From a virus: DNA of 64,000 nt. The position numbers and the translations under genes were made by a program. The number at the start of each line of letters is the position of its first letter. The stretch's first letter is position 1. Positions 9,728-26,229 of this stretch are shown one piece after another. The notes beneath the pieces are model-generated. The model did no database searches and had not been told where the DNA came from. It saw only the letters and a list, made by a program, of their open reading frames with translations. The DNA is taken from positions 9,922 to 73,921 of the IMG/VR virus record IMGVR_UViG_3300043783_000034. The stretch is one strand, 5' to 3'.

Positions 9728-9987
9728 TGCAAGCTGGCCGCATTGATAACGCCACCCGCGTGCTGTTCGCGCCCAGTGACTGGGACAAGGAAAAGCACGG
9801 GACCTGTGGCAGTCTCGCTGTCCGTGACGAGAAGACGACCGCCGGTATGGTGATGACGAGCGCATGGTTTCCGACCGAAAGAGAGATCGATCGCATCCGC
9901 GCCGGCGCTCCGATTTACCTGAGTATAATCGGAGAGGTGCACCCGCCCGTCTCTATGTCAGTCGGACCGCCGCCGCGCGCGTCCTAA
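9727..9987 (+). CDS. conserved small phage protein
   Basis: APSDWD..HGTCGSLAVRD...SAWFPT pattern; TGATG coupling. Confidence 0.65.
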   Translation: MQAGRIDNATRVLFAPSDWDKEKHGTCGSLAVRDEKTTAGMVMTSAWFPTEREIDRIRAGAPIYLSIIGEVHPPVSMSVGPPPRAS

Positions 9988-10060
9988 CGCGCTGACGCAC
10001 TATCGCCTTAAAACTTTTTCCGCCATTGATTGCGCCATCACGTGGAATCCCGCGCGGGAT

Positions 10061-12194: not shown

Positions 12195-12253
12195 CGTCGG
12201 CGCGCGCGCAGGAACACAGGAGCCCGACAGCGGGCGAACGGGGAGCACGGACG

Positions 12254-13390: not shown

Positions 13391-13426
13391 CCGGCGCGGC
13401 TCATCACTTTTAGGAGCATTGATAAA

Positions 13427-14122
13427 TTGAGCGACAACTTCAAGCGCCCGTGCGCAAGCTGCGGTAACCCCGTCCACCGCATGTCGAAGGTCTGCAAGGT
13501 TTGCGGCCACGCCTCGCCGTGGGTACCCAGCCCGCAGCCGGAGCTCGGGAAGCCTCCCGAAGCTGCGCCGCCCGCTGCTCCTGCCCCGCCGCGCGCCCCC
13601 GAGGCGCCGGCTGTCCAGTCCGCACTGAAGGCGCCGCGCACTGTCACGGTGGCCTGCAAGTTCCCAGGCGGCATGCGCCTGCAGCTTTCCCGCCCCGAGC
13701 AACGATTCGAGCCCATTATGGGCGGCGGCACGCGGGAATACACCGTCTACATTCCGACCGGGCGGCCGTGGTTCGTGAGCGGCCCCGCCTATCCGGTCGG
13801 CGTCGTCCCGACGGGCTTTCCCAAGGCGCCTGAAGTCGAAGGCGGCATGGCGCTCACGCATGGCATTCCAGCCGACTTCTGGGAGCAATGGGTCGAGCAG
13901 CACAAGCGGGCCGAATACGTTGTCAGTGGAATCATCTTCGCGCTGCCGAACGCCGAGGACGCCGCCATCAAGGCGCGCGAGCATGAGAAGGAATTGTGCG
14001 GACTCGAACCCCTCAGTCTCGACGAGGACGAGAAGGGCAAGCTCAAGGATCCGCGTGTGCCGAAGCCGATCAATCTCGCCGTGGCGAAGCTCGCGACCGA
14101 ACAACGTACGGCTGCAGGGTAA
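13427..14122 (+). CDS. conserved post-capsid protein with N-terminal Zn ribbon and Pro-rich linker
   Basis: CASC/CKVC; then TVTVACKFPGG...ALTHGIPADFWEQW domain. Confidence 0.7.
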   Translation: MSDNFKRPCASCGNPVHRMSKVCKVCGHASPWVPSPQPELGKPPEAAPPAAPAPPRAPEAPAVQSALKAPRTVTVACKFPGGMRLQLSRPEQRFEPIMGGGTREYTVYIPTGRPWFVSGPAYPVGVVPTGFPKAPEVEGGMALTHGIPADFWEQWVEQHKRAEYVVSGIIFALPNAEDAAIKAREHEKELCGLEPLSLDEDEKGKLKDPRVPKPINLAVAKLATEQRTAAG

Positions 14123-14130
14123 CTGGGCCG

Positions 14131-14637
14131 ATGCAATGGCCGATCCCGCCCGTTCCACCGGTCGCGTTCGTCTATCAGACTTGGGTGGGGATGTTTTCGG
14201 AGTTCGGCTCCGTAAACGATGCTCTCGCGCAAGGGTATTTCCTGCGCGCCTCGATGATCTGCGCAAACTCGACCATAAATCCCTTGTTCTGCTACGGCAC
14301 GTTGCAGACGGTTCTCTATTTGCTGACTGCGCACATTGCCAAATTGAATGCACCCGTCGACGACAACGGCAATCCGACCACCGTCGGCCAGCCTAATCCG
14401 TCGATCGTCGGCCGCATCAATAGCGCGACGCAAGGATCGGTTTCGGTCCAAGCCGAATGGGGAAATGGATCTTCATTCTCGCCCACGGAAGCATGGTATC
14501 TTCAAACCAAATACGGCGCCGAAGCGTGGACCGGGATGGCGCCGGCACGGACTTTCCGCTATGCAGCGCGGCCGACCCGAGTGCCGAGCGGTGCTTATCC
14601 CGGTGGTGGGGTTGTTTTCGGCCGGTTTGGCCGCTGA
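14131..14637 (+). CDS. DUF4054 head-tail adaptor
   Basis: LYLLTAHIA, VGRINSATQGSVSV, WYLQTKYGAEAW. Confidence 0.85.
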   Translation: MQWPIPPVPPVAFVYQTWVGMFSEFGSVNDALAQGYFLRASMICANSTINPLFCYGTLQTVLYLLTAHIAKLNAPVDDNGNPTTVGQPNPSIVGRINSATQGSVSVQAEWGNGSSFSPTEAWYLQTKYGAEAWTGMAPARTFRYAARPTRVPSGAYPGGGVVFGRFGR

Positions 14638-14649
14638 ACGGAGGCGACG

Positions 14650-14877
14650 ATGGACATCGACGTGCTGGCGCGGCAGGTGCGCGAACTGACCGCCTTCAAG
14701 GACAAATACGAGCCGATGCTCAAGGTCGTTCAGGCCAAATACGATCTCGTGCGCGACAAAACCGAGCGCGAAGCCGATGCGGAAAAGACGCGCCCGGCCG
14801 ACGACCCGGACCGCGCTGATCGTGCGCCGCCCCCTACGCCGCCGGCGGCCGAGCCGCAGCCGCAGCCGTCGGCGTAA
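14650..14877 (+). CDS. small coiled-coil protein
   Basis: GGAGG RBS; ORF. Confidence 0.6.
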   Translation: MDIDVLARQVRELTAFKDKYEPMLKVVQAKYDLVRDKTEREADAEKTRPADDPDRADRAPPPTPPAAEPQPQPSA

Positions 14878-14930
14878 CGCTGGCAGCGTCCAGCAACCTC
14901 GAACACGTCCTAAACAGACCCACGAGCGCC

Positions 14931-15203
14931 ATGGCACCGCTGCCGGCCCGACGCGAGGCGAAGCCGCTGGTGCATCTTCCGCGGCCGGCAGAACTCGCCG
15001 GTGCGCCCGCCCGCATGCTGCGGACCATGGATCTTGCCGCGTCGATCCAGCACACGATGCGGCGCTATGACAACGTGCTCGACGCGATCGAGGAAAAGCA
15101 GACGCAAATGGCGGCGCACGTTGACGATCTAGAAGCCTACGATCGCGATCTCGACGCGGTTATCAACAAGATGCTCGAGCCGCCGAAGAACAGCGAGGGT
15201 TGA
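14931..15203 (+). CDS. small coiled-coil protein
   Basis: Co-oriented ORF with a heptad-like C-terminus. Confidence 0.55.
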   Translation: MAPLPARREAKPLVHLPRPAELAGAPARMLRTMDLAASIQHTMRRYDNVLDAIEEKQTQMAAHVDDLEAYDRDLDAVINKMLEPPKNSEG

Positions 15204-15209
15204 CCTGTC

Positions 15210-15464
15210 ATGGATATCCCGGCCCGCTATAAGCACCTCGGCCTCGGCGACGATCACATCCGCCAGGTCCTCGTGCGTCTCGAGGAACTCGGCCAAGAGG
15301 AAGTTGCGGCGCTTATGGCGCGCGACGGTCTTCCGTACGTCTGGCACAACGTCATTCGCATTTGGCGTAAGCAGAAGTTTGCCGAGAATACCGGCATGTC
15401 GAATGTGGAAGATCTAAGCGGGCTTCGTGGGGGAGCAGCGGGGGCGTCCTCGCGCGCGTCGTAA
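15210..15464 (+). CDS. hypothetical protein
   Basis: Co-oriented ORF abutting the next start. Confidence 0.55.
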   Translation: MDIPARYKHLGLGDDHIRQVLVRLEELGQEEVAALMARDGLPYVWHNVIRIWRKQKFAENTGMSNVEDLSGLRGGAAGASSRAS

Positions 15465-15465
15465 A

Positions 15466-15915
15466 ATGGCGACGTTGCGCGGGGGCGGCGCTTTCGAGGC
15501 CAAGCTGCGGCAGATCGCCGAGAGCGTCTCGAAGCCCGGCACACTCCGGGTCGGCTTTCTCGAAAATGCTACTTATCCAGACGGCAAGCAGGTGGCGATG
15601 ATCGCCGCGATCCAAGACTTCGGTGCGCCCGGTGTTGGCATCCCACCGCGGCCGTTCTTCCGCAATATGATCGCTGCGAAACAGAGCGAGTGGCCGAACG
15701 CTATCGGCAATCTGCTTAAGGCAAACAATTACGACGCGCCGCGTGCTTTGAGTGTTGCCGGTGCTGGGATCGCCGGACAGTTGCGTCAGAGCATTATCGA
15801 AACAAATTCCCCCCCTCTTTCGCCCACGACCATCGCAAGGAAAGGCCACGCCAAACCGCTGGTTGACACAGGCCACATGCTGAACTCCGTCGACTTTGAA
15901 GTTAAAACGCGGTGA
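15466..15915 (+). CDS. neck/virion morphogenesis protein (HK97 gp10-like)
   Basis: LRVGFLE.ATYPDG, IPPRPFFR, KPLVDTGHMLNSV. Confidence 0.82.
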   Translation: MATLRGGGAFEAKLRQIAESVSKPGTLRVGFLENATYPDGKQVAMIAAIQDFGAPGVGIPPRPFFRNMIAAKQSEWPNAIGNLLKANNYDAPRALSVAGAGIAGQLRQSIIETNSPPLSPTTIARKGHAKPLVDTGHMLNSVDFEVKTR

Positions 15916-16009
15916 CCTCAATGTGTCTGTGACGCAGATTGTTTCCCGCGCGGCGTAAAATTATGATCGCGCGCGATTTTCATCGCTGCGGATCGAGGGG
16001 ACAACCAAT

Positions 16010-17317
16010 ATGCTCACGAAGCTCCGGGTTGGCATTGCCGCCGTCGCCATCCTCGCCGCAGTGCTGCCCGCGAAGTCGCAGACCACCGTCCTCGACTTGG
16101 TCCCCATTCCGCTCCCGGGCACGAGCAACACCACGCTCAATTCGGAAATGCTCGTGCAGAGCCTCGCGGTTACGGGCGGCACGCTTTTCATCGTTACCAT
16201 TCGGCAGCCGGGCGCCGGCGGCGCAATCCTTGGTTCAACCGCATCCTTCGCCGCGTCCGCAAATGCCGCGATCACGCCCGCGTCGATCACCGGCAGCGTG
16301 GCGCCTTTTCCAATTGCTGGCCTCGCAGCTGCGCAGGGAGGCGCCGTCACCGTCACGGGCGGCGCCTCTTCGACGTCAGCCAATGCTGGCGGGGCCGTTG
16401 ATCTGACCGGCGGCGCGCCGGGGGCGACCGGCGTTGGCGGCGCCATCGTCATCGCCGGCGCAGCCGGCGGAACGACATCGGGCGCGGGTGGCGCTGCGAG
16501 CGTCACGGGCGGCGCTGGCACGGCAGGCAACTCGTCGGGCGGCATTGCTTCGCTGGTCGGCGGCGCCGGCCAGGGCACCGCGAACGGCGCCCAGGCGCAG
16601 GTCACGGGCGGCGCTTCGGGCGCTGGCCCGACCGGAGCCGGTGGCGCGGTCGTCATCGCCGGCGGCGCGGCGGCTTCGACGAACGGCGCGGGCGGCGCGG
16701 CGTCGCTGACGGGCGGTGCGGGCGTCGGCACCGGCAACGGCGGCAACGCGACGGTGGCGGGCGGCGCGGCAGGCGCGACCGGTACCGGCGGCACTGTTGC
16801 GATCACTGCGGGCTCGCCCACGGCTGGCAACGGATCGAGCGTCACCGTGACCGCATCGGCGGGCGCCGGCGGCACCAACGGCGGCGGCAGCATCAACCTC
16901 GTGCCAGGCGCGGCGGTCTCGACCGGCGCTCCGGGCACCGTGCAGGTCAACGGCAATGCCGGCCTGATCTGCCACAACGGGACCATTGCCACCGGCTCGG
17001 CGTCGACCACGATCTTCATCGCGACGCGGGCGATGCTAATCGAGCAAATCAGCGCAATCTGGTCGGCGGCGGCGGGCGGCACCAGCACAGCGGGCGTCTA
17101 TCACGACACGGGCACCAACGCGCCGGGTGGTGGCACCGACATGCTCTCGGCCGACTTCAACCTCAACACCACCGCGAACACCACGAACACCGGCTCGCTG
17201 TCGGCGACCGTGGCGACGCTGATGCTGGCTGCTGGCGATCGCATTTCGGTCAAGATGAACAATGCCATTCAGTCGACCACTGGCTTAAACTTCACTTTCT
17301 GCGCGGCGCCGCAATAA
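16010..17317 (+). CDS. Gly-rich fibre-like protein with signal peptide
   Basis: MLTKLRVGIAAVAILAAVLPAKS-Q signal-like N-terminus; ~13 GGxVxIxGG repeats; C-terminal beta domain bracketed by two Cys. Confidence 0.75.
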   Translation: MLTKLRVGIAAVAILAAVLPAKSQTTVLDLVPIPLPGTSNTTLNSEMLVQSLAVTGGTLFIVTIRQPGAGGAILGSTASFAASANAAITPASITGSVAPFPIAGLAAAQGGAVTVTGGASSTSANAGGAVDLTGGAPGATGVGGAIVIAGAAGGTTSGAGGAASVTGGAGTAGNSSGGIASLVGGAGQGTANGAQAQVTGGASGAGPTGAGGAVVIAGGAAASTNGAGGAASLTGGAGVGTGNGGNATVAGGAAGATGTGGTVAITAGSPTAGNGSSVTVTASAGAGGTNGGGSINLVPGAAVSTGAPGTVQVNGNAGLICHNGTIATGSASTTIFIATRAMLIEQISAIWSAAAGGTSTAGVYHDTGTNAPGGGTDMLSADFNLNTTANTTNTGSLSATVATLMLAAGDRISVKMNNAIQSTTGLNFTFCAAPQ

Positions 17318-17381
17318 GGAGGCGCTTAAACCCAATTCCCACGACAGCCTCGCGGGATCTCACCAGGGGGAACCTGACACC

Positions 17382-18011
17382 ATGAAGCGCGCTTTTCTTC
17401 TCCGGAATGCCGCCGTTGCCGCAATGGTGATGGCAAACCCGCATCTTGGCGCCGCAAAGTCGGCACCGTCTGGCCTGCAGCATCAGCAGCGCCAGTTGAT
17501 GCCGACTTGGCAGCAGGTCGCCCAAATCCAGCAGATGGCGAACTACGAAGCGCCGATTCTGCAAGGCACTGTCGCCACGACCTACAAGAGCAGCGCCCTT
17601 GTCTATTCGTCCGGCTCGCGCCGCATCATGGCGTACGAAATCGAGTTCGGTCAGTCGGGCGCCCTGTCGTCGACGGACTGCCAATGCCAGTGGGACGTCT
17701 CGCGCTTTTCCTCGACGAACATCCTCACCGCCACGTCGGTCGTTCCCAACCCGCTCGATCCGGCGGACGGCACTTGCCTCGCGCTGTTCCTCAACAACGC
17801 GACCACGGAACTCACCTACACGACCGCCGGCGTCGGCCTGTCGCTCAAGAATTGGGGCATCAACCAGCGCGGTTCGTACCGCTGGCGCGCGTTGGACGAT
17901 GGCGACAACCTCATCATTCCGGCGACGAACCTCGTCGGCCTCGGCATCCGGACGCTGAGTTCCAATTTCACCGGTAGCGCAGTTGGCAACCTCTCATTCG
18001 TTGAAAGGTAA
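17382..18011 (+). CDS. beta-rich putative virion filament/appendage subunit
   Basis: AGGGGG RBS, followed by a strong terminator; VPNPLDPAD and NQRGSYRW motifs; alternative start at 17535. Confidence 0.6.
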   Translation: MKRAFLLRNAAVAAMVMANPHLGAAKSAPSGLQHQQRQLMPTWQQVAQIQQMANYEAPILQGTVATTYKSSALVYSSGSRRIMAYEIEFGQSGALSSTDCQCQWDVSRFSSTNILTATSVVPNPLDPADGTCLALFLNNATTELTYTTAGVGLSLKNWGINQRGSYRWRALDDGDNLIIPATNLVGLGIRTLSSNFTGSAVGNLSFVER

Positions 18012-18038
18012 GCGTTTCCGCGCTTCTGTGATCGAACC

Positions 18039-18068
18039 AAAGGGCCCCCTTTCCGGGGCCCTTTTTTT
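18039..18068 (+). terminator. Rho-independent terminator
   Basis: AAAGGGCCCC-CTTTCC-GGGGCCCTTT stem-loop with a T7 run. Confidence 0.85.
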
Positions 18069-18085
18069 GTGTCAAAGACGCACTT

Positions 18086-18397
18086 ATGTCGCGCGATGGT
18101 CCCTTGCTCAAGAACAGCCCTGAATGGAAGATTCCGCATGGCCCATCGATCCGCGCCGGTGGTCTTGGTGAGTATTTCAATCCGGACGGGACGATCACCG
18201 AGGTCTATTCGAGCACCTGCAGCCATTGCCAGCACGTCACCGAGTTTCCGAATCGGCGAAAGATGTTTGAGCATGTCGACGTCTGTCGCGGCTGCATGAA
18301 ATTGATTTGCCTCGGCTGCGCCGGTAAGCCTTGCGTGACTTGGCTCAAGAAGTGCGACATCGAGGAAGCGGTCGCGCGACGAAAGATGTTGGGATGA
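18086..18397 (+). CDS. Cys-rich Zn-binding protein
   Basis: CSHC, CRGC, CLGC and further Cys. Confidence 0.7.
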   Translation: MSRDGPLLKNSPEWKIPHGPSIRAGGLGEYFNPDGTITEVYSSTCSHCQHVTEFPNRRKMFEHVDVCRGCMKLICLGCAGKPCVTWLKKCDIEEAVARRKMLG

Positions 18398-18879
18398 GCG
18401 ACAGGTGCATCACCTGCGCCCGCTGGCTTGTGCGGCAGGAAACTGTCTACAGCGACGGGACGACAATCGTTCGGTGGCGGGCGTCCAGCGGCCACGGAAA
18501 GTGCCGGTTCTTGAACATTGAGACGCCGGCTGAGTTTGGGTGCGCAAAGTTCGAGCAAGCGCGTCATAGTTCTGAGGCAAAAGTGTTTTTTGAAGTGCAA
18601 GTCGAGACAGAGCGCAAGGACGGCGCTCCATGGCAACACTTCACGATGATCGAATGCCCCGCGTGCAGTGGGCGCCCGGGACTAGGCGAGGCCGGCCGGT
18701 GCAAATGCGCCGGCACCGGAAAGACACGCCTCTATGACGACGGCTATGTCGGCGACGAGCACACTCGCAAGCACCCGAAGGAACTGGAACGGCCGCCTAT
18801 CGCGGTCGAGCCCGGCACCATCTTGCAGGCGCTCCCCGAAAAGGCGCCAGCGGCCCTGTGGAATGAAATCCCGCAATGA
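18394..18879 (+). CDS. Cys-rich Zn-binding protein
   Basis: CITC, CPAC, CKC; ATGA coupling at both ends. Confidence 0.7.
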   Translation: MSDRCITCARWLVRQETVYSDGTTIVRWRASSGHGKCRFLNIETPAEFGCAKFEQARHSSEAKVFFEVQVETERKDGAPWQHFTMIECPACSGRPGLGEAGRCKCAGTGKTRLYDDGYVGDEHTRKHPKELERPPIAVEPGTILQALPEKAPAALWNEIPQ

Positions 18880-19664
18880 TCAGGGAAATGCCGCACCGGT
18901 ACGGGCCTCACCCGATCTACGTCCCTGATACGGACAACGGGCAATATGCGTGGCTGCTGACCACCCAGGCGTCGCCCGAGGACGAATGGATTGACTTGGT
19001 CCTCGCCCTGATGGCGCTACGTCCTCGGGGCGTGGCGCTGGACGGGGGTGCGAACTTCGGGTGCTGGACGGTAGCCCTCTCCACGGAGGCCTATCAGGTA
19101 CACGCCTTCGAGCCCCAGCGGCAGGTCTGCGGGCTACTGCGCCGGACAGTTCGACCGCTCGGCAACGTATTCGTTTACCAGAAGGCGATCGGCGAGCATT
19201 CCGGGCTCGCCCGCATCCCGGATCTCGACATGATCAACGGGACAAACTTCGGCGGCGTGAGCATGAATATGGCGCACTGGGAGTACCCCGACGCCCCGAT
19301 GCAGATGGTCGCCGTGGCCACCATCGACAGCTTCGACTTCCAAGACGTGTCATTCATCAAGGTCGACGTCGAAGGCGAAGAGGCGTCCGCACTTGAGGGC
19401 GCGCGCGATACCATCAAGCGATGCAAGCCGATCCTGTTCATTGAAGCGCTGTTCAAGGGCACGGACGATCTGTCAGATGAGGCGAAGCACGAGCGCGCCA
19501 TCAAACGGGCCCGAAAGCTGCAAGACACAATCGAGGCGATGGGATATGCGGTGGACCATCGCGGCCCGAACTATCTCTGCTTGCCGCTTGTGAGGGACAA
19601 ATGCCTGCCGACCTCAACGCCATGGTGGAATCGGCCCGCGCCGCCGTTGAGAGCGACCAAGTAG
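18876..19664 (+). CDS. FkbM-family SAM methyltransferase
   Basis: LDGGANFG, HAFEPQ, NFGGVS, FIKVDVEGEE, KPILFIE. Confidence 0.88.
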   Translation: MIREMPHRYGPHPIYVPDTDNGQYAWLLTTQASPEDEWIDLVLALMALRPRGVALDGGANFGCWTVALSTEAYQVHAFEPQRQVCGLLRRTVRPLGNVFVYQKAIGEHSGLARIPDLDMINGTNFGGVSMNMAHWEYPDAPMQMVAVATIDSFDFQDVSFIKVDVEGEEASALEGARDTIKRCKPILFIEALFKGTDDLSDEAKHERAIKRARKLQDTIEAMGYAVDHRGPNYLCLPLVRDKCLPTSTPWWNRPAPPLRATK

Positions 19665-21280
19665 CCGCTGCCGGCGTTTTCTACCGATCGATCCTTCGGG
19701 AAACATCGCCCCCCAAGACGGCGACGGAGCGAGTAGCTCACGGCGAGGCATGCTGGTTCAATGGCCGCCTGGCGCTCGCCCGCGGCAAACTGGGCGAAGC
19801 GGCCGACTGGTACAAAGAAGCACTCGACGCCGACCCGCGTGCGACCGACTACCGCATCGAGTTCGTCATCCGGTGCCTGATCCCCATGGGCGCGCTCAAG
19901 GACGCGAGGATCGAGGCCGAGCGCGCGACGCGCATCGATCCGCACCACCCGATGGCTTGGCGGACACTTGCGAGCGTCGAGCATTCCATGAGCAATGCCG
20001 AAGGCGCCATTGCGGCCTATGACAGGCAGCTTGAGCTTCTGGATGCGGGAACGCCGGAATACGCGAATGCGCTGGTCGATCGGATATCGATCGCGATCGA
20101 CACCGCAGATTATGTGACCGTCCGGCGCCTATGTGATCGCGTGATGGGCACCGAGCGTCAGGCCGATGCGCTGCACTGCCTCGCGATGGCGGCCTACCGG
20201 GAGGCCGAACACGAGAAGGCAATCGAGTTATTCGACGCAGCGATCGCTGGCGGCTGCTACGACCCGGCGCTTGCGCGCTGGAACAAGTCGCTTGCCCTGC
20301 ACGCAATCGGCCAATGGGAAGAGGGCTGGTCCGATCACGAGCAGCGCGGCAAACAGAGAACCGACCGCGCGATGGCGCTGATGATGAATCGCTTCGTGAT
20401 GCCGATATGGGACGGCGAACCGGCACCGGCACGGCTTCATGTACATCAGGAAATGGGATCAGGCGACGTCATCGCGATGGCGCGTTATCTGCCGATCTTG
20501 GTTCGCCACGGCTATGACGTTCGGCTCGAAGTCAACGAGCAGATGGTCGACCTGATGCGCGCGAGCCTTGACGGCGTAACCGTGATGGCGAAGGCGCCAG
20601 ATTACCCGGGCGCATTGGGCATTCCGCCGTTCGACTACCACGTGCCGATGCTCTCGCTGCCGTATCTGTTTAAAACGACGGTAAACACTGTGCCAACTTG
20701 GATGCCATACTTGAAGGCGCCGACCAATTTTCTGAGATTCCAAAACCCAGGGCTCAAGGTCGGCCTATGCTGGTCATCAGGCATTCGCGACGGCGGAGTG
20801 TGGCTTCGCGAATACGGGATGCGCAAGTCCATGTCATTTGACGATTTACAGCCACTCATCAAGGCAACCGACCACCAAATACAATTCTTCTCACTACAGA
20901 TCGGTCCGGAGCGCAGACAAGTAGCGTGGCCCGTCTATGATATTGTTTTGCCCAAAAAACCCACTTGGGGCGAAACGGCCGATCTCATCGCGCAACTCGA
21001 TCTTGTCATCACCGTCGACACATCGGTGGCGCACCTCGCTGGCGCCATGGGCAAGCCGGTGTGGGTCATGGCGCAGCGCGACTGTTCGTCGTGGCACTTC
21101 ATGTGCTGGCGCCCTGACGCAGTATGGAACGACCGCAGCCCGTGGTATCCTTCGGCGCGCGTCTTCCGCCAGCACCGGTTCAACGAACCGCACAAGTGGG
21201 ACGAAGTCGTCGAGGACGTGACCAAGGCGCTCATCGAATGGGCCGACGCGCAAAGGGCAAATCTCGACGCCGCTGAATAA
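19601..21280 (+). CDS. TPR-repeat glycosyltransferase (GT-B, GT9/GT41-like)
   Basis: N-terminal TPRs; EMGSGDVIAMARY, FDYHVPMLSLP, LDLVITVDTSVAHLAGAMGKP, SPWYPSARVFRQ. Confidence 0.88.
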   Translation: MPADLNAMVESARAAVESDQVAAAGVFYRSILRETSPPKTATERVAHGEACWFNGRLALARGKLGEAADWYKEALDADPRATDYRIEFVIRCLIPMGALKDARIEAERATRIDPHHPMAWRTLASVEHSMSNAEGAIAAYDRQLELLDAGTPEYANALVDRISIAIDTADYVTVRRLCDRVMGTERQADALHCLAMAAYREAEHEKAIELFDAAIAGGCYDPALARWNKSLALHAIGQWEEGWSDHEQRGKQRTDRAMALMMNRFVMPIWDGEPAPARLHVHQEMGSGDVIAMARYLPILVRHGYDVRLEVNEQMVDLMRASLDGVTVMAKAPDYPGALGIPPFDYHVPMLSLPYLFKTTVNTVPTWMPYLKAPTNFLRFQNPGLKVGLCWSSGIRDGGVWLREYGMRKSMSFDDLQPLIKATDHQIQFFSLQIGPERRQVAWPVYDIVLPKKPTWGETADLIAQLDLVITVDTSVAHLAGAMGKPVWVMAQRDCSSWHFMCWRPDAVWNDRSPWYPSARVFRQHRFNEPHKWDEVVEDVTKALIEWADAQRANLDAAE

Positions 21281-21293
21281 AGGGGATTCGACG

Positions 21294-21449
21294 GTGTGGC
21301 AATCGCAAGCGCTGGCGCCGTTGCCCGTCTCCCGGCCCGCAGGCCCTACTCTGCAATGGCATGACGTCAAGGTCGGCGGCGGCGGATTCACGCGCGATAT
21401 GGATATCGCGCCGGACGCAGTCTCTTGGTTAGAGACAGACGGCTGCTGA
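21294..21449 (+). pseudogene. 51-aa relic resembling the start of a GH74-like beta-propeller
   Basis: AGGGGA RBS, GTG start; LQWHDVKVGGGGFTRDMDIAPD then an early stop. Confidence 0.45.
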
Positions 21450-21485
21450 TTCCGCGCAGGGCCGCCTAAATCAGGGAACGGAGCA

Positions 21486-23981
21486 TTGCCTGCTTCTATT
21501 GTCAGCATCGGCTCCAACTCGACGGTCGTAACCGGCAAGGTCACGATCACCCTTTCGGCTGCGGTGCCGGCTGGTGCTCAGATTGTCGTCCTTGCCTCTT
21601 ATAATTCGACGGGCAATGCAGGAAGCTGTGCTGACTCTGGCAGCAATACCTATTCAAGCGGGCCATTCGCGAACAATAATGGCAACGCTACTCTCGGCAC
21701 ATTGGCATCTTATATAGCGACGGCTAATGCCGGTCTTGCAAATGGAGGTACAATTACCTTTACATTGCCGAGCGGCGCAACATTGGCATCGGTTGCGGCT
21801 GTTTATTTGCTCGGCGTAGTGACCGGCACTCTGTCCCAAAGCAATAGCGGCAGCGGAGTAGGCACCAACCCCAGTATTTCCACTGTCGCCAATGTGCAAT
21901 CCGGTCAGGCCGCCGTCGCGGCTGTTTCCGGATCGTCGCTCATCACTTCCTTTACTCAGGACACCGCTGATGGCTGGTCAAGCCCAATCGGCGATGTATC
22001 CAATGCCGCACCCGTTTTGGCTGGTGGGTCGCAGGTTATCCCAGCGTCGGGAAGTTTGACTTACGCGCCGACTTTCGGCTCGTCCGATAATTGGGCGGCG
22101 GTCATCCTTATTTTTCTGCCGTGGACGAACTGGATACCGGAAGATCATCTGAAACCCAATCAGCACCCGCGCCCCGAGCGCAGCGGCGCCTTGCAGATCG
22201 GCGAAGGCAATATCAGCGGCACAGAATATCCGATCATACAGTGGTTCAATTACGGGTGGCCGGTCCAGCCCCCGATGATCCGACATCCCATGCCAGAGCG
22301 CGCCGGATCGATCATGCCATTGTCGCAGATCGATACGCTTTTCCCGTGGTCGCTTTTCGGATGGGAGCCATATTCGGTCACCTACGCAAAAGTAGGCGTA
22401 CGAGCGCGGCTCGTGCAGGCGCCGGATATCGGTGCGTACGTCGCGCCACCGCCCTTTACGATTTACCGCAGCGAGATCCAATCCTGGCAGTCGCCGCACC
22501 CGCGCCCGGAGAAAGGAGGCTCGCTTGCTGGCGGCGACTTCGGCGTTACTTTTCAGCAACTGCTTCCCCAATTCTATCAGGGATGGGAAGTGCTGCTCTG
22601 GCAGCCGCCGCACCCGCGCCCGGAGAAGGGCGGATCGATCGCGCGCGGCGACGACGGTACCGAGGCCAAATTCCAGTTCGTGCCTCCGTCCTTCATTTGG
22701 GCGGCCGAAGTTCAATATTCCTACGTGCTGCCGCGCCAGCCGATGCCTCTGCGAGATCCAGCGTGGCGGGTTGATAACGGTGCCGATTGGCCGACCCGTC
22801 CGTGGCTGTTCATGGGGTTCGAGGTACAGCAGCCCCCACCGCCGCATCCCCGGTCGGAACGGTGGGCAGCAGTCTTCCCAGAAGATGACGGTATCGAGGC
22901 GCCACTGTATCGATGGCAGAATTATGGGTGGCAGATCGAGCCACCATCGCCACCGCATGTGCGCTTCGAGCGCGCCGCCGGCGTGCTCCCGATCGTCAAC
23001 CCGGACGGCACGTTGCCCCCGTTCTATCAATGGGGTTGGGAAAACGCGCCGGCGCTGCCGCCGCATCCGCGCCCCGAGCGATTCGGCGCCAATGCCCGTG
23101 GCGATGATGGCACCGAGCTCAATCTCGCATTTTGGGTCACCGCCGGTCGTGGGTCGCAGGACTTCCAGCCCCCCCACCCGCGCCCGGAACGCGCGGGATC
23201 GACCCTCAAGGGCGACGAAGGAATCGAGGGCATCTATCATTTCGTAACGGCACCCTTCGCTTGGTCACTCGACGTCCATTACGCCTACCCGCATCGACCA
23301 TTCCGCGATGCCTCCTGGCGCGGCGACGATGGCGCGCAGGGCTTGTTCTCGCAGTGGATAAACGTCGGCTGGGAGCCGACGCCGCCGATGCTCTACTTCC
23401 CGCGCCAATGGCGCGCGGGCGCAACGATGCGCGGCGATGATGGCAACGAAGGTCGCTATCAGTTTTGGGTCAATCGCGGGTGGGAGGAGACCACCGTCGA
23501 CATTCCGCGGCGCCGCGTCGAGCGCGTTGGCACGCTTCCTGGCGACGATGGCATTGAGGCGCTCTACAAGCCCTTCATTCCAATCTTTACGTGGTGGTTC
23601 CCGTACCAACCACAGCGCATTCCCTTCAATCGGGAGGCCGCTATTGCGGCCGGTGACCACGGCACGGAATTGCCTTTCGTCCCGCCGTTCGTCGGCGGCG
23701 GAAAATTGTTCGAACCTCCGCAATATTGGCGCGCACGGTCGAAACTGGATGTTCCCCGGTGGGAAGAAGGCACCGAAGCGCCAATGCAGCAGCAGCCGAT
23801 CACCGGCTGGGACGGTACACCACCTGTGCTGCAGATACCGTGGTTCAAGTTCGCGGCCGCCTTCATGGCGGGCTCGCCGGGCATCGACGCCGTGTACTAC
23901 GTGCCGGTCTTCTATGCGAAGACGACGATCACGTGGATGCGCGGCGTAACCGTGGTAAAAGGCGAGTGGTCACCAGATTGA
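21486..23981 (+). CDS. large protein: N-terminal beta-sandwich plus ~14 Pro/Trp-rich repeats
   Basis: GGAG RBS, TTG start; repeated PPHPRPER..G....GDDG.E...GWE units. Confidence 0.8.
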   Translation: MPASIVSIGSNSTVVTGKVTITLSAAVPAGAQIVVLASYNSTGNAGSCADSGSNTYSSGPFANNNGNATLGTLASYIATANAGLANGGTITFTLPSGATLASVAAVYLLGVVTGTLSQSNSGSGVGTNPSISTVANVQSGQAAVAAVSGSSLITSFTQDTADGWSSPIGDVSNAAPVLAGGSQVIPASGSLTYAPTFGSSDNWAAVILIFLPWTNWIPEDHLKPNQHPRPERSGALQIGEGNISGTEYPIIQWFNYGWPVQPPMIRHPMPERAGSIMPLSQIDTLFPWSLFGWEPYSVTYAKVGVRARLVQAPDIGAYVAPPPFTIYRSEIQSWQSPHPRPEKGGSLAGGDFGVTFQQLLPQFYQGWEVLLWQPPHPRPEKGGSIARGDDGTEAKFQFVPPSFIWAAEVQYSYVLPRQPMPLRDPAWRVDNGADWPTRPWLFMGFEVQQPPPPHPRSERWAAVFPEDDGIEAPLYRWQNYGWQIEPPSPPHVRFERAAGVLPIVNPDGTLPPFYQWGWENAPALPPHPRPERFGANARGDDGTELNLAFWVTAGRGSQDFQPPHPRPERAGSTLKGDEGIEGIYHFVTAPFAWSLDVHYAYPHRPFRDASWRGDDGAQGLFSQWINVGWEPTPPMLYFPRQWRAGATMRGDDGNEGRYQFWVNRGWEETTVDIPRRRVERVGTLPGDDGIEALYKPFIPIFTWWFPYQPQRIPFNREAAIAAGDHGTELPFVPPFVGGGKLFEPPQYWRARSKLDVPRWEEGTEAPMQQQPITGWDGTPPVLQIPWFKFAAAFMAGSPGIDAVYYVPVFYAKTTITWMRGVTVVKGEWSPD

Positions 23982-23988
23982 GGACGCA

Positions 23989-24330
23989 ATGCTCTCGGGC
24001 GGCATCCAGGCGATTACCCGCGGCGCGACGATCCAGTTCGCAACGACGTTCTATGACGTCAATGGGAACGTCGTCGTGCCAGATTCCGCCAATGTGCAGA
24101 TCTTCTATGCGACGCCCGCCGAGCCGGACGGGATCTACGCCAATGTAGCAATGACGCGGCCCGGCATCGGCAATACGCTGTGGACGGCGCTGTGGGATTC
24201 GCGAGGTGCGCTCGCGCCTTGGGTCATCGAATGGGCGATCCAGACCGGCATGGACGATCCTATCCCTGTGACGCAGGAAGACGGCATCTTCCGACTCGTC
24301 GCCAACAACGCCAACTTGCCGACGTTCTGA
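23989..24330 (+). CDS. small Ig-like/beta-rich putative adaptor
   Basis: GAGG RBS; alternating beta-strand pattern. Confidence 0.6.
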   Translation: MLSGGIQAITRGATIQFATTFYDVNGNVVVPDSANVQIFYATPAEPDGIYANVAMTRPGIGNTLWTALWDSRGALAPWVIEWAIQTGMDDPIPVTQEDGIFRLVANNANLPTF

Positions 24331-24334
24331 TGCC

Positions 24335-24724
24335 ATGAACCTCAACTTTCTCGCCGGGGGCGTTGCGGCTGCGGTCAATCCGCAGATGCGCGTCAAGGTG
24401 CAGGTCAGCACCGGATGGACGCTGAGCCCAAACGGGGACGGCTCGCGCATTCCGTCCTACGCGCCGCCGGTCTATGTGTTCGGCCAGATCCAGCCCGTCA
24501 CATGGCGCGATATCCAGCACCTTGACGGATTGAACCTGCAAGGCACGCGCCGCGTGATATACCTCAACGGCAGAATCGAAGGGCTTGTGCGACCGACGAA
24601 TCAGGGCGGCGATCTTATAACGCTGCCGGATAAGTCGGTGTGGCTGGTGACGCTCATCATCGAGGGCTGGAGCCCGACCGCCGGATGGACGAAGGCTGCG
24701 ATCCAACTGCAAAACGGGAGCTGA
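24335..24724 (+). CDS. head-closure / head-tail joining protein
   Basis: MNL...AAVNP, QHLDGLNLQGTRR.IYLNG, GGDLI...WLV...E.W. Confidence 0.75.
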   Translation: MNLNFLAGGVAAAVNPQMRVKVQVSTGWTLSPNGDGSRIPSYAPPVYVFGQIQPVTWRDIQHLDGLNLQGTRRVIYLNGRIEGLVRPTNQGGDLITLPDKSVWLVTLIIEGWSPTAGWTKAAIQLQNGS

Positions 24725-24726
24725 TT

Positions 24727-25299
24727 ATGCGCAAGCTATACTTGGCTGCTGCGACATGGATTGCCCTCACGGCAATGGCATGGGCACAGGGCGCCACTGG
24801 CCTCCTGATCCAGCCTCTCGGTTATTGCCAGCTTTCCGCGACGCAGCTTTCTTCGGCGATCGGCCTTGCCTCGTGCACGCGGGCAAGTTTTACCGGCACC
24901 GGATCGGGTACGAACCTGACGACGACAAGCGTCACGGGAATCATCAAGGTCGGCGATACGGTGACGGGAACGGGCGTGCCTTCGGGGACGACGATTCTCT
25001 CGCAGACCAGCGGCACCGCTGGCGGCGCCGGCGTCTACGTGACCAGTGCCACGACTACATCATCGAGTGCCAGCCTTACGTCGGGCGGCATCCCTTCGCG
25101 AGCTAATCTCGTGGCGCTACAAGCCGAAACGGCCAACGTGCGCTACCGCGATGATGGCGGCGCACCCACGGCCTCGATCGGGGAAATTATCGTCAGCGGG
25201 CAGCAACCATTCCTGTATTCGGGGACACTGTCGACACTCCAATTCATCGCGGCAAGCGGCAGCCCGCTTCTTGACGTGCTGTTCTATTATTCGCCATGA
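24727..25299 (+). CDS. small virion-type protein with signal peptide and inserted Thr/Gly module
   Basis: MRKLYLAAATWIALTAMAWA-Q; PLGYCQ...VRYRDDGGAPTAS.G core. Confidence 0.72.
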   Translation: MRKLYLAAATWIALTAMAWAQGATGLLIQPLGYCQLSATQLSSAIGLASCTRASFTGTGSGTNLTTTSVTGIIKVGDTVTGTGVPSGTTILSQTSGTAGGAGVYVTSATTTSSSASLTSGGIPSRANLVALQAETANVRYRDDGGAPTASIGEIIVSGQQPFLYSGTLSTLQFIAASGSPLLDVLFYYSP

Positions 25300-25376
25300 C
25301 GTTTCTGCAAATCTTCGCGCTTTACTGCATTCCATCCTTGCTCGTGGCGTTGCTCGTGGTATTGCGCGCTTAAATC

Positions 25377-26129
25377 ATGGCCTCGATCTCTCCGACACAA
25401 TCGAACATCACCGCCGCGCTTTATGCATTCCTGACATTCATTTTGCCGCCGAATACCTTGGTGGTGCTCGCGGCCGATAATCGCGTCACTGAACCGAGCC
25501 AGACTAACTTCGTCGTCATGACGCCAATTCGCTTCGAGCGCATCGCCACCAACATCGACACCGGCGCAGACGTGAAGTTCACAGGATCCATTAGCGGCAA
25601 TACGCTCACTGTCGAGAGCGTGGCTATCGGGGTGCTCGCGCCGGGTGCCATCATCAACGGGCCAAGCATTCCCCCGGGCATCACGGTTGGCAGTCAGCGG
25701 AGCGGATCTCCGGGCGGCGCTGGCGTCTACGTTGTCAATGGCGCCCCACCAACGGTCCCCGTGGAAACCATGTCATGCGGGGCGATCGGGTTGTTGCAGT
25801 TGGCAGTCGTCACGGTGCAACTTGATTTTCATTCCGGAACCAATGGCAGCGCCAGCGCGGCGTCGGATATGGCGCAGACAGTGTCGACGGTGCTGCGCGA
25901 CGAGCAAGGCGTCAACTTCTTCGCAACGCTCGCGCCGCCCCTCAACGGCGTCGTGCCGCTCTATGCGGATGATCCGCGCTACATGCCTTTCATCAATGAT
26001 GCGGAGCAATATGAATGGCGATGGGTGCTCGAAGCGCGCTTCGAGGCCGACCAGCTTGTCAGTCTGCCGCAGCAGTTCTTCGACTCGGCGACGATCACGG
26101 TTGAGAGCGCGACGGCGCTACCGGATTAA
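25377..26129 (+). CDS. tail completion/neck terminator protein with inserted module
   Basis: DNRVTEP...FVVMTP, VQLDFH, PLYADDPR.MPFIN.AEQYE.RW; upstream of the sheath gene. Confidence 0.75.
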   Translation: MASISPTQSNITAALYAFLTFILPPNTLVVLAADNRVTEPSQTNFVVMTPIRFERIATNIDTGADVKFTGSISGNTLTVESVAIGVLAPGAIINGPSIPPGITVGSQRSGSPGGAGVYVVNGAPPTVPVETMSCGAIGLLQLAVVTVQLDFHSGTNGSASAASDMAQTVSTVLRDEQGVNFFATLAPPLNGVVPLYADDPRYMPFINDAEQYEWRWVLEARFEADQLVSLPQQFFDSATITVESATALPD

Positions 26130-26229
26130 GTCTTCTTGGCTCGCTACTCCCCTGACGCACTAGCACTTTCGCGGTCGCCCGCTATGGTCAACCCGGCTCG
26201 CTGTGGCAGCCAGGGGAGCGCCGCCGCCC

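What the first reader, a model, noticed from the sequence alone, without database searches (positions are those of the whole stretch)
16010..24330. ~8.3 kb cassette in the neck genes: putative glycosylated/methylated virion appendage system
Seen: between the gp10-like neck gene and the head-closure gene, which I recall as near-adjacent in this phage type, lies a co-oriented block. It encodes a Gly-rich fibre, a beta-rich protein with strong RBS and terminator (suggesting high copy), two Zn-finger proteins, an FkbM methyltransferase overlapping a TPR-glycosyltransferase, a GH74-like relic, an 831-aa repeat protein and a small Ig-like protein. Established: TPR-GT enzymes often modify proteins, FkbM enzymes O-methylate sugars and other hydroxyls, and virion glycosylation is known in some actinobacteriophages. 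Inference: a self-contained module that builds a head or neck filament and decorates it, or other Ser/Thr-rich virion proteins, with methylated sugars.
Basis: partly seen in the sequence, partly recalled or inferred. Interest (0 to 1): 0.85.

Follow-up and report, generated by a model that had tools for sequence, protein, structure and literature searches.

The report
Conserved phage glycosylation-and-appendage gene cassette
An 8.3 kb block wedged between two neck genes of a tailed phage contains a five-gene core (an unknown jelly-roll protein, two zinc proteins, a methyltransferase and a TPR-glycosyltransferase) that recurs in the same order in about 20 other uncultured phages, and probably builds or sugar-coats an accessory virion part.

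Summary
In related myoviruses the Neck1 and collar genes overlap; here 8.4 kb of co-oriented genes separates them.

- **Core order:** p158 jelly-roll protein, Zn-ribbon, Zn-ribbon, methyltransferase, TPR-GT9-like glycosyltransferase. This order is kept in all 22 IMG/VR loci that extend far enough.
- **Position:** always inside virion-morphogenesis clusters, but on at least four different phage backbones.
- **Methyltransferase:** either a separate FkbM gene (window and four loci) or an unrelated Methyltransf_24-like domain fused to the GT (17 loci). This ties methylation to glycosylation.
- **Repeat protein:** a Pro/Trp-rich ~37-aa repeat protein follows in at least 14 loci. Near-identical phages carry 757, 831 or 1175 aa versions. 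The repeats are predicted disordered.
- **Not part of the core:** the Gly-rich "fibre" has no counterpart elsewhere.
- **Relic:** the 51-aa remnant matches the N-terminus of an 846-aa BNR/sortilin-like protein only weakly.

p158 has no Pfam, PHROG, NCBIfam or PDB sequence match, and no isolated phage carries it.

Best reading (about 0.4): a horizontally exchanged accessory-appendage and protein-glycosylation cassette. Virion location, sugar and acceptor are all inferred. Other first-stage notes in this scan cover the same DNA stretch, none other DNA.

The parts
15427..15915 (+). Left flank: Neck1 / tail-completion protein (HK97 gp10-like).
   Evidence: phrog_222, E 2.7e-44. Directly abuts the collar gene in phages 4_D05 and phiE131.
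16010..17317 (+). Gly/Ala/Thr-rich 435-aa protein: N-terminal signal-peptide-like segment, about thirteen 16-17-aa repeats, ~110-aa C-terminal globular part. Lineage-specific, not part of the conserved core.
   Evidence: Composition G 21%, A 20%, T 13%, and repeats. No Pfam, PHROG, NCBIfam or PADLOC hit. No homologue in 28 related loci. L018 and L032 carry an unrelated 200-aa protein (phrog_33012) in this slot; L033 carries a 212-aa protein with only a weak phrog_4271 hit.
17382..18011 (+). p209, which is the p158 jelly-roll core (17535-18011) plus a 51-aa N-terminal extension. Founding gene of the conserved module.
   Evidence: 421 clusters at 90% identity and 539 at 50%, nearly all stand-alone at about 155 aa. 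AF2 pLDDT 89.5, all-beta. Single jelly-roll, best Z 8.5-7.7 to STNV coat, Ena, KHP40 cement and XepA. BFVD hits to uncharacterised phage proteins, E 4e-8, TM 0.76. No Pfam, PHROG, NCBIfam or PDB sequence hit.
18039..18064 (+). Intrinsic-terminator-like hairpin plus T-run after p209.
   Evidence: Not conserved in relatives.
18086..18397 (+). Zn103: small Cys-rich protein with pattern C-x-HC ... CRxC ... IC..C....C.
   Evidence: Conserved Cys/His columns in 20 homologues. Always the first conserved module gene after p158 (in some loci an extra 0.7-1.1 kb lies between). Only a weak DUF6510 hit, E 0.016.
18394..18879 (+). Zn182 (likely ATG 18394, an ATGA overlap with the Zn103 stop). N-terminal 4-Cys ribbon plus a CPxC...CxxCxGxGxV motif that resembles the DnaJ Cys-rich region.
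   Evidence: Alignment of 20 homologues. No Pfam family at E <= 0.1, so this is resemblance only.
18876..19664 (+). FkbM-family SAM-dependent methyltransferase.
   Evidence: PF05050 E 3.5e-13; TIGR01444 E 9e-19; phrog_8156 E 2e-20. The same slot holds a Methyltransf_24-like domain fused to the GT in 17 other loci.
19601..21280 (+). TPR (about residues 40-240) plus GT9-like GT-B glycosyltransferase (about residues 250-559).
   Evidence: TPR families and PF01075. TIGR02193 heptosyltransferase I motif, E 2e-5. A profile of 22 phage homologues finds only WaaC/WaaF in the PDB, E 0.18. At least 587 bacterial homologues at 32-40% identity.
21294..21449 (+). 51-aa ORF: probable N-terminal remnant of a BNR/sortilin-type beta-propeller gene.
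   Evidence: Colinear with residues 7-44 of L007's 846-aa protein that follows the GT (E 7e-4). That protein hits BNR and Sortilin-Vps10.
21486..23981 (+). rep831: two N-terminal beta-sandwich domains (1-214) plus about 13 copies of a ~37-aa unit (HPRPERxG...GDDGxE...W..GWE..PP).
   Evidence: Repeat HMM. AF2 gives pLDDT about 88 for the N-domain and below 35 for the repeats. N-domain Z <= 7.7 to CBM / receptor-binding-protein-head type folds. 120 homologues; near-identical phages have 1175- and 757-aa versions.
23989..24330 (+). 113-aa beta-rich protein, last gene of the insertion.
   Evidence: Homologue (54% identity) in the same position before the collar gene in L018. Weak phrog_9849 hit. 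Fold not tested.
24335..24724 (+). Right flank: collar / head-closure-type protein.
   Evidence: phrog_1912, E 7e-29; PF22755 (E217 gp28), E 1.2e-3. 142 phage records carry a homologue.

Best explanation
The block is a real insertion into the Neck1|collar junction of a myovirus late operon.

Its heart is a horizontally exchanged, phage-specific cassette with a fixed gene order:
- p158, a small and very conserved single-jelly-roll protein;
- two zinc-ribbon proteins, probably folding or assembly factors;
- a SAM methyltransferase;
- a TPR-GT9-like glycosyltransferase.
After these come variable beta-sandwich or propeller proteins and a long Pro/Trp-rich repeat protein.

Proposed mechanism (all inferred): the cassette is transcribed with the late structural genes. 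The TPR domain recruits a phage protein substrate. The GT9-like domain transfers a sugar from a host nucleotide-sugar pool; ADP-heptose is the obvious candidate for a GT9 enzyme. The methyltransferase O-methylates that sugar. p158 and the repeat protein form an accessory virion part, such as a neck or head fibre or a decoration. The length of that part can change with repeat number.

The Gly-rich gene, the propeller relic and the 113-aa gene are lineage-specific cargo around this core.

Shown: the insertion, the conserved order, the enzyme families, the methyltransferase displacement, the jelly-roll fold, the repeat polymorphism and the cassette exchange between backbones.
For: - **Insertion:** Neck1 and collar are adjacent in relatives.
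- **Core synteny:** Zn103 and Zn182 follow p158 in 27 of 29 loci. MT plus TPR-GT follow in all 22 loci that extend far enough.
- **Structural context on different backbones:** between Neck1 and collar in the window, L018, L032 and L033. After collar in L004. Right after the portal in L011 and L012. After a phrog_3287 virion protein in L017. After tail-tubular-B-like (my reading) and phrog_5880 proteins in L005, L007 and L009.
- **Translational coupling in the window:** an ATGA overlap between Zn103 and Zn182. Zn182/FkbM and FkbM/GT also overlap. Gaps of 4-8 nt run from rep831 to the collar gene, and no promoter-like site lies at a gene start.
- **Methyltransferase displacement:** FkbM and a fused Methyltransf_24-like domain occupy the same slot.
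- **GT architecture:** TPR plus GT-B is the same architecture as the flagellin O-glycosyltransferase FlmG (PMC7591256). GT9-type enzymes that heptosylate proteins are known (TibC, PMC4358343).
- **p158 fold:** the jelly-roll is of the kind used by phage cement proteins, fibre knobs and Ena pili.
- **Repeat protein:** co-occurs in at least 14 loci. It varies between 757, 831 and 1175 aa in near-identical phages and is predicted disordered alone.
- **Cassette exchange:** the p158 tree conflicts with the backbones. The window groups with L011, L012 and L010 (92/92). L004 (myovirus) pairs with L005 (podovirus-like) (97/94).
- **Rare in bacterial genomes:** 1 locus in the 185,579-species scan (patterns from the close-homologue alignment) and 0 of 400 further genomes of the class of MAG G001, labelled Alphaproteobacteria. 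This argues against a lysogenic-conversion cargo.
- **Not a known defence family:** no PADLOC hit.
Against: - There is no direct evidence that any cassette protein is in virions or is glycosylated.
- No isolated phage carries p158 (tblastn against 50,697 phage records), so no proteomics exists.
- Fold matches for p158 are at Z <= 8.5, a level the tool flags as common for unrelated jelly-rolls.
- The repeat consensus has no conserved Ser or Thr, so the acceptor is unknown.
- About a fifth of close p158 homologues, including the window's, have a hydrophobic N-terminal extension and often lack the canonical Met. If this is a signal peptide, p158 would leave the cytoplasm.
- The phage already has canonical tail fibres (phrog_12796 at 36416-37924).
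- One bacterial MAG locus (L010) has p158 without the enzymes.
- The GT9 assignment rests on a short motif.
Confidence: 0.4

Rival explanations
1. Envelope-directed late function. The GT9-like enzyme and the methyltransferase modify a host envelope component, such as LPS core heptose or an exported protein. p158, exported in the leader-bearing forms, acts in the periplasm or at the cell surface. Possible purposes are masking receptors on infected cells and debris, blocking superinfection, or helping release.
For: - GT9 is classically an LPS heptosyltransferase family, and the only PDB and NCBIfam motif matches are WaaC/WaaF.
- 27 of the 120 closest p158 homologues carry a hydrophobic N-terminal extension that often replaces the canonical Met.
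- The window's Gly-rich protein has an N-terminus that looks like a Sec signal by eye.
- p158 shows fold likeness to XepA, the exported protein of the PBSX lysis cassette (Z 7.7).
Against: - The GT carries a TPR domain, which is typical of protein-directed enzymes.
- Most p158 proteins (158 aa) have no leader.
- The cassette always sits in morphogenesis clusters, co-oriented and in the window overlapping or tightly spaced with structural genes.
- It was hardly found in bacterial genomes, so it was not seen as prophage cargo.
- The disordered repeat protein and lectin-like proteins have no obvious role in this model.
Confidence: 0.2
2. General virion glycosylation system. The TPR-GT and methyltransferase decorate the phage's main capsid or tail proteins, as mycobacteriophage glycosyltransferases do. 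p158 and the Zn proteins serve as adaptors or chaperones rather than as parts of a separate appendage.
For: - The position next to head, neck and portal genes.
- The enzyme pair is conserved while the downstream genes vary.
- Virion glycosylation by phage-encoded GTs is inferred in mycobacteriophage genome reports (PMC11256854, listed; abstract only); that it is experimentally established I take from memory.
Against: - The cassette moves between unrelated backbones (myovirus, podovirus-like, others) whose capsid and tail proteins differ. A backbone-specific substrate is therefore unlikely unless recognition is very loose.
- p158 is the most conserved and most constant partner, so the substrate or partner probably travels with the cassette.
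Confidence: 0.15
3. A chance pile-up of unrelated morons at a permissive site, with no joint function.
For: - The Gly-rich gene, the propeller relic and the 113-aa gene are lineage-specific.
- A terminator sits inside the block.
Against: - The five-gene order is kept in 22 of 22 sufficiently long loci on different backbones.
- Identities there are p158 51-75% and GT 41-55%.
- The methyltransferase is fused to the GT in 17 loci.
Confidence: 0.03

Closest known systems
FlmG-type flagellin O-glycosyltransferase (Caulobacter crescentus; PMC7591256)
   Same: Same two-part build and similar size: an N-terminal TPR domain that binds the protein substrate plus a C-terminal GT-B glycosyltransferase. 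FlmG is 596 aa; the window's protein is 559 aa. Both are cytoplasmic enzymes that modify a structural protein before assembly.
   Different: Homology to FlmG was not tested, because no FlmG sequence was on hand. No flagellin or pseudaminic-acid genes are present here. The partner proteins (p158, Zn proteins, repeat protein) are phage-specific and absent from all 80 bacterial loci that hold a GT homologue.
Bacterial autotransporter heptosyltransferases (TibC/Aah; PMC4358343) and LPS heptosyltransferases WaaC/WaaF (GT9)
   Same: The GT domain carries the GT9 nucleotide-sugar motif (PF01075; TIGR02193; WaaC/WaaF are the only PDB sequence hits). TibC shows that heptosyltransferases can hyper-glycosylate repeat-rich proteins.
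   Different: The match covers only about 40 residues at weak E-values. TibC itself was not hit. TibC has no TPR domain and works as an iron-containing dodecamer. The sugar donor here is unknown.
Mycobacteriophage virion glycosylation (phage-encoded glycosyltransferases near capsid genes)
   Same: A phage-encoded GT inside the structural region, with a presumed protein target on the particle.
   Different: Different host group (probably Proteobacteria) and a different GT type, which here is TPR-GT9-like. Other features are a coupled methyltransferase, a fixed set of accessory proteins, and mobility between backbones. That the mycobacteriophage enzymes are GT-A type is from memory, not tested.
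Jelly-roll cement, decoration and fibre subunits (H. pylori phage KHP40 cement protein 7dou; Bacillus Ena pili 7a02; satellite-virus coats 2buk)
   Same: p158 is a compact single jelly-roll of similar size (Z 8.2-8.5, rmsd 2.5-3.2 over 97-123 residues).
   Different: No sequence similarity. The Z values lie in the range the tool calls common. p158 is far more conserved than typical decoration proteins and travels with enzymes.

Membership tests
FkbM methyltransferase family (PF05050 / TIGR01444) | Profile score above the curated cutoff over the SAM-binding domain. | tested here: met
   PF05050 50.5 bits (cutoff 22.7), residues 56-196. TIGR01444 68.3 bits (cutoff 37.7).
Glycosyltransferase family 9 (PF01075, heptosyltransferases) | Profile match over the GT-B C-terminal domain, including the nucleotide-sugar-binding D-[TS]-x-x-x-H-L motif. 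| tested here: inconclusive
   PF01075 25.9 bits against a cutoff of 22, but only residues 456-487. TIGR02193 23.9 bits against a cutoff of 185. PDB profile search finds WaaC/WaaF at E 0.18. The motif VDTxVAHLAGAMGKP is invariant or near-invariant in 22 phage homologues.
Glycosyltransferase family 9 | ADP-heptose as the donor sugar. | not testable with these tools
   Needs an enzyme assay or mass spectrometry.
TPR-containing protein O-glycosyltransferases (FlmG / OGT-like architecture) | N-terminal TPR array fused to a C-terminal GT-B catalytic domain. | tested here: met
   TPR_2, TPR_16, TPR_19 and others at residues 47-215, and the GT motif at 449-487. FlmG architecture from PMC7591256.
TPR-containing protein O-glycosylransferases (FlmG / OGT-like) | Sequence homology of the catalytic domain to FlmG or GT41. 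| not tested
   PDB OGT hits cover only the TPR region. No FlmG sequence was available.
DnaJ-type Cys-rich zinc finger (CxxCxGxG) | Match to the DnaJ_CXXCXGXG profile. | tested here: not met
   No Pfam family at E <= 0.1 for 18331-18879. Only the motif CPxC...CxxCxGxGxV is conserved, so this is resemblance rather than membership.
Phage cement / decoration jelly-roll proteins | Fold match clearly above background, plus location on the capsid. | tested here: inconclusive
   KHP40 cement Z 8.2; GP4 Z 6.6; Pam1 Z 6.0. All are within the generic range. Capsid location is not testable here.
Ena-type endospore appendage subunits | Jelly-roll core plus an N-terminal connector with Cys that cross-links subunits. 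| tested here: inconclusive
   Fold Z 8.4 to 7a02. A subset of homologues has an N-terminal extension with a Cys just before the core, but most do not.
BNR/sortilin (GH74-like) beta-propeller, for the 51-aa relic | Homology to a full-length propeller protein at the same position. | tested here: inconclusive
   Pairwise E 7e-4, colinear with the N-terminus of L007's 846-aa protein. That protein scores BNR 27.0 (cutoff 27) and Sortilin-Vps10 25.8 (cutoff 33). No other locus has it.
Known anti-phage defence systems (PADLOC) | Any profile hit. | tested here: not met
   No hit for 8 cassette proteins at E <= 0.01.

The most novel reading that the evidence does not exclude
p158 subunits assemble on the disordered Pro/Trp-rich repeat protein, with one binding site per ~37-aa HPRPER...GDDGxE...GWE unit. 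Repeat number (11, 13 or 22 in near-identical phages) would then set the length of a virion filament. The TPR-GT9-like enzyme and a methyltransferase coat that filament with methylated sugar. This would be a portable, length-programmable, glycosylated appendage system that phages of Gram-negative bacteria swap between myovirus, podovirus-like and other backbones. It would also be the first phage-encoded GT9-type protein glycosyltransferase.
Probability: 0.15. Interest if true: 0.85.

Novelty: new variant of a known kind. Interest (0 to 1): 0.62.

Why it matters
- **Phage glycobiology:** to my knowledge (not checked here), phage-encoded virion or protein glycosylation is documented mainly in actinobacteriophages and giant viruses. 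A conserved, mobile glycosylation-plus-methylation cassette in soil and freshwater phages of probable Proteobacteria would extend it to a new host range and enzyme type.
- **Uncharted protein families:** three abundant phage families lack any annotation. They are p158 (539 clusters at 50% identity), the two Zn proteins and the repeat protein (120 or more homologues). The fixed gene order gives a concrete five-gene set that can be co-expressed and tested.
- **Possible applications:** if the appendage reading holds, the cassette would be a natural example of modular virion accessorising. That bears on host recognition, particle stability and phage engineering.

Tried and rejected
**Searches that found nothing**
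- Megablast of 12000-28000 against 50,697 phage records.
- tblastn of p158 against the same phage records.
- p158 against longer proteins, looking for fused forms.
- PDB sequence searches with p158 profiles A1 and A3.
- PHROGs on 58 distant p158 relatives: a single weak hit.
- PADLOC on the cassette proteins.
- Exact 25-mer from the repeat-gene start in metagenome and viral contigs.

**Uninformative or failed**
- The single-protein scan for rep831 in viral contigs found nothing, although tblastn later found relatives in the p158 loci.
- Foldseek against the PDB gave nothing clear for either model.
- hhalign of the p158 profile against LIMEzero ORF57 and tail tubular protein A showed no homology. 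The BFVD fold hits therefore could not be tied to a function.
- Distant-member alignment A3 was too diverged for locus scans.
- Bacterial neighbourhoods of GT homologues looked heterogeneous and were not resolved. FkbM was nearby in only 3 of 80.

**Tools and steps that were closed or stopped**
- The protein-atlas search could not read the sequences.
I stopped that step. The signal-peptide reading of the extensions is therefore by eye only.

**Ideas rejected**
- The Gly-rich protein as the conserved filament: it has no homologues.
- A closed beta-propeller for the repeat region: repeat number varies by 2 and 9 units between near-identical phages.
- A lysogenic-conversion cassette as the main reading: p158 is nearly absent from bacterial genomes.


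Full report
**1. What is in the window**

The window is part of a 73.9 kb IMG/VR virus record, rated complete by CheckV. It encodes a myovirus-type structural module:
- major head protein, 12167-13390 (phrog_264);
- Neck1 / tail-completion protein, 15427-15915 (phrog_222);
- collar / head-closure-type protein, 24335-24724 (phrog_1912; weak E217 gp28 hit);
- sheath, 26203-28227 (phrog_205);
- its own tail fibre, 36416-37924.

The collar protein has relatives in 142 phage records. In Aeromonas phage 4_D05 and Burkholderia phage phiE131 the Neck1 gene overlaps the collar gene by 4 nt. tblastn of the window's proteins confirms that everything between them is absent there.

**2.

- **FkbM:** confirmed above curated cutoffs (PF05050, TIGR01444).
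- **TPR plus GT:** confirmed. The GT9 assignment rests on a short but diagnostic nucleotide-sugar motif (PF01075 25.9 bits, residues 456-487; TIGR02193). A profile of 22 phage homologues finds only WaaC and WaaF in the PDB, at E 0.18.
- **Two Zn proteins:** both have Cys/His columns conserved in 20 homologues. The second also has a CPxC...CxxCxGxGxV motif that looks like the DnaJ Cys-rich region, but it does not hit that Pfam family.
- **Terminator:** the hairpin at 18039-18064 is the best in 16.5 kb. It is specific to this phage.
- **51-aa ORF:** it aligns colinearly with the N-terminus of an 846-aa BNR/sortilin-like protein that follows the GT in locus L007. "Relic" is plausible but weakly supported.
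- **Gly-rich ORF:** 21% Gly, 20% Ala, 13% Thr, with about thirteen 16-17-aa repeats and an N-terminus that looks like a Sec signal.

**3.

Scans of IMG/VR with the 209-aa protein and then with an alignment of its homologues gave 28 viral loci. A genome scan added one MAG locus. tblastn of all window proteins against them gave the following.
- The two Zn proteins follow p158 in 27 of 29 loci. One exception ends 165 nt after p158. The other is the MAG locus L010.
- A methyltransferase plus the TPR-GT follow in all 22 loci that extend far enough.
- The methyltransferase is a separate FkbM gene in the window, L011, L012, L015 and L016.
- In the other 17 loci it is an unrelated Methyltransf_24-like domain (phrog_24975) fused to the N-terminus of a 750-940-aa TPR-GT ORF.

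Two unrelated methyltransferases in the same slot, one of them physically fused to the GT, is the strongest argument that methylation and glycosylation act on the same product.

The repeat protein is found downstream in 14 loci. At least 12 contig lengths are shared between the p158 and repeat-protein hit lists. This points to the same contigs, although that step is inference.

The Gly-rich protein has no counterpart anywhere. L018 and L032 carry an unrelated 200-aa protein (phrog_33012) in its place, and L033 a 212-aa protein with only a weak phrog_4271 hit.

**4. Genomic context**

The cassette is always inside morphogenesis clusters, but on different backbones:
- between Neck1 and collar in the window, L018, L032 and L033 (head protein 57-71% identical to the window's);
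- after the collar gene in L004;
- directly after the portal in L011 and L012;
- after a phrog_3287 virion protein in L017;
- after a tail-tubular-B-like protein (my reading; it hits phrog_460) and phrog_5880-type large proteins, in the slot where tail fibres lie in T7-like genomes (from general knowledge), in L005, L007 and L009.

An IQ-TREE of p158 places the window with L011, L012 and L010 (92/92) rather than with its myovirus cousins. It pairs myovirus L004 with podovirus-like L005 (97/94). The cassette is therefore exchanged between backbones. At the Neck1|collar site both methyltransferase subtypes occur.

**5. p158**

Homologues start at MANYEAP, preceded by a GGAG ribosome-binding site.

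The family is large:
- 421 clusters at 90% identity, most 70-85% identical to the window's;
- 539 clusters at 50% identity;
- nearly always stand-alone at about 155 aa, with no fused forms found.

It has no Pfam, PHROG, NCBIfam or PDB sequence match. No isolated phage carries it. It is almost absent from bacterial genomes: one locus in the 185,579-species scan (using patterns from the close-homologue alignment), and none in 400 further genomes of the class of MAG G001.

AlphaFold2 gives a confident all-beta model (pLDDT 89.5). It is a single jelly-roll, with best matches at Z 8.5-7.7:
- satellite-virus coat proteins;
- Bacillus Ena subunits;
- the KHP40 cement protein;
- XepA;
- TNF-like trimers.

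These values are in the range the tool warns is generic. BFVD gives significant fold matches (E 4e-8, TM 0.76), but only to uncharacterised phage proteins. Two LIMEzero candidates showed no profile similarity.

**6. An unexplained twist**

27 of the 120 closest homologues are 170-209 aa long. In most of the eleven inspected the canonical Met is replaced (for example CFANYEAP or GEANYEGP), and a 20-50-aa extension with a short hydrophobic stretch precedes the core. The window's protein is of this kind: ATG 17382 has an SD-like GGGGGA, and ATG 17535 has none. Whether this is a signal peptide, an anchor or an Ena-like connector was not resolved.

**7. The repeat protein**

A repeat HMM finds about 13 units of about 37 aa, with the pattern HPRPERxG...GDDGxE...W..GWE..PP. 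The family consensus keeps QPPHPRPER almost invariant while overall identity is about 30%.

Two near-identical proteins from other contigs are 1175 and 757 aa long. They differ from the window's 831 aa by clean in-frame gain or loss of whole repeats. This fits an open, length-tolerant structure rather than a closed propeller.

AlphaFold2 with 32 homologues folds residues 1-214 into two beta-sandwiches (pLDDT about 88). It leaves residues 215-831 without structure (pLDDT below 35). The N-domain resembles CBM and receptor-binding-head folds only generically (Z <= 7.7).

In most relatives the repeats are preceded by a Gly-rich (GGGGGG) domain instead. One such protein in L005, without repeats, gave a weak Gly_rich_2 hit.

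**8. The GT in bacteria**

At least 587 bacterial homologues were found (32-40% identity over the GT domain, TPR included). They occur in Azospirillum, Bradyrhizobium, Acetobacteraceae, Acidobacteria, Planctomycetes, cyanobacteria and others. None of the 80 best loci has p158, the Zn proteins or the repeat protein, and only 3 have FkbM nearby. The enzyme is therefore of bacterial type, and its partners are phage-specific.

Its architecture equals that of FlmG, in which the TPR domain binds flagellin and the GT-B domain glycosylates it (PMC7591256). TibC shows that heptosyltransferases can hyper-glycosylate repeat proteins (PMC4358343).

**9. Interpretation**

Shown:
- an insertion into the neck-gene junction;
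- a conserved five-gene core plus a repeat protein;
- enzyme families, with non-orthologous methyltransferase displacement;
- a jelly-roll fold;
- repeat-number polymorphism;
- mobility between backbones;
- near-absence from bacterial genomes.

Inferred:
- late co-expression;
- a protein substrate, from the TPR domain;
- a methylated sugar;
- heptose as the donor;
- virion location.

I rate the reading [quoted passage not shown] at about 0.4. The rivals are:
- an envelope-directed late function, about 0.2, favoured by the leader-bearing p158 forms and the LPS ancestry of GT9;
- general glycosylation of capsid or tail proteins, about 0.15;
- a chance collection of morons, about 0.03, contradicted by the synteny.

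**10. Novelty**

I found no description of this cassette in the literature searches, and no family entries for three of its proteins. It is best classed as a new variant of phage-encoded protein or virion glycosylation, with uncharacterised structural partners. Other first-stage notes in this scan cover the same stretch; none had been followed up.

Noticed in passing
window 24727-25299 (+): The gene between the collar gene and the phrog_1876 gene starts with a textbook signal peptide (hydrophobic core, then AWA|Q). Its homologue in L018 (54% identity) also has one (ARA|Q). It also shares a ~70-aa Thr/Gly-rich segment with tail-fibre families phrog_38233 and phrog_21413.
   Followed up: partly
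window 26203-28227 (+), residues ~149-313: The sheath protein is 674 aa. Its matches to the sheaths of 4_D05 and phiE131 split into residues 12-148 and 311-673, which are contiguous in those phages. The window's sheath therefore carries a ~165-aa insertion. The neighbouring 250-aa protein (25377-26129) also has an inserted segment that hits the same tail-fibre PHROGs.
   Followed up: no
L005 ~9810-10000, L007 ~9810-10003, L009 ~9830-10000: In the podovirus-like loci a small, very basic ~60-aa ORF lies directly upstream of p158. It has a conserved HTRKA...KRRQW.HV...G...G.AIR.AN.V motif and an Arg-rich tail. By eye it looks ChaB-like.
   Followed up: no
L032 6595-7201: Two small Gly-rich proteins with clear signal peptides lie between the major head gene and the phrog_2085-type gene in a myovirus cousin.
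   Followed up: no
L010 3404-4733 (alphaproteobacterial MAG contig): This is the only bacterial-genome copy of p158. It has a hydrophobic N-terminal extension, lacks the Zn, MT and GT genes, and is followed by a phrog_2085-like protein. In the window that family sits right after the major head gene.
   Followed up: partly
window 57724-58362 (-) and 47295-48173 (-): A small serine recombinase / DNA invertase (phrog_125, E 4e-58) and a DNA methyltransferase (phrog_1008). Among the ten further ORFs scanned against PHROGs none hit a tyrosine-integrase family; the only integrase-family hit was the serine recombinase itself.
   Followed up: no
window 18876-19664 vs L011 3140-3847 and L012 11381-12091: The window's FkbM is 262 aa, against 235-236 aa in relatives. 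Its extra C-terminal ~21 aa produce the 64-nt overlap with the GT start. Relatives have a 4-nt overlap.
   Followed up: no
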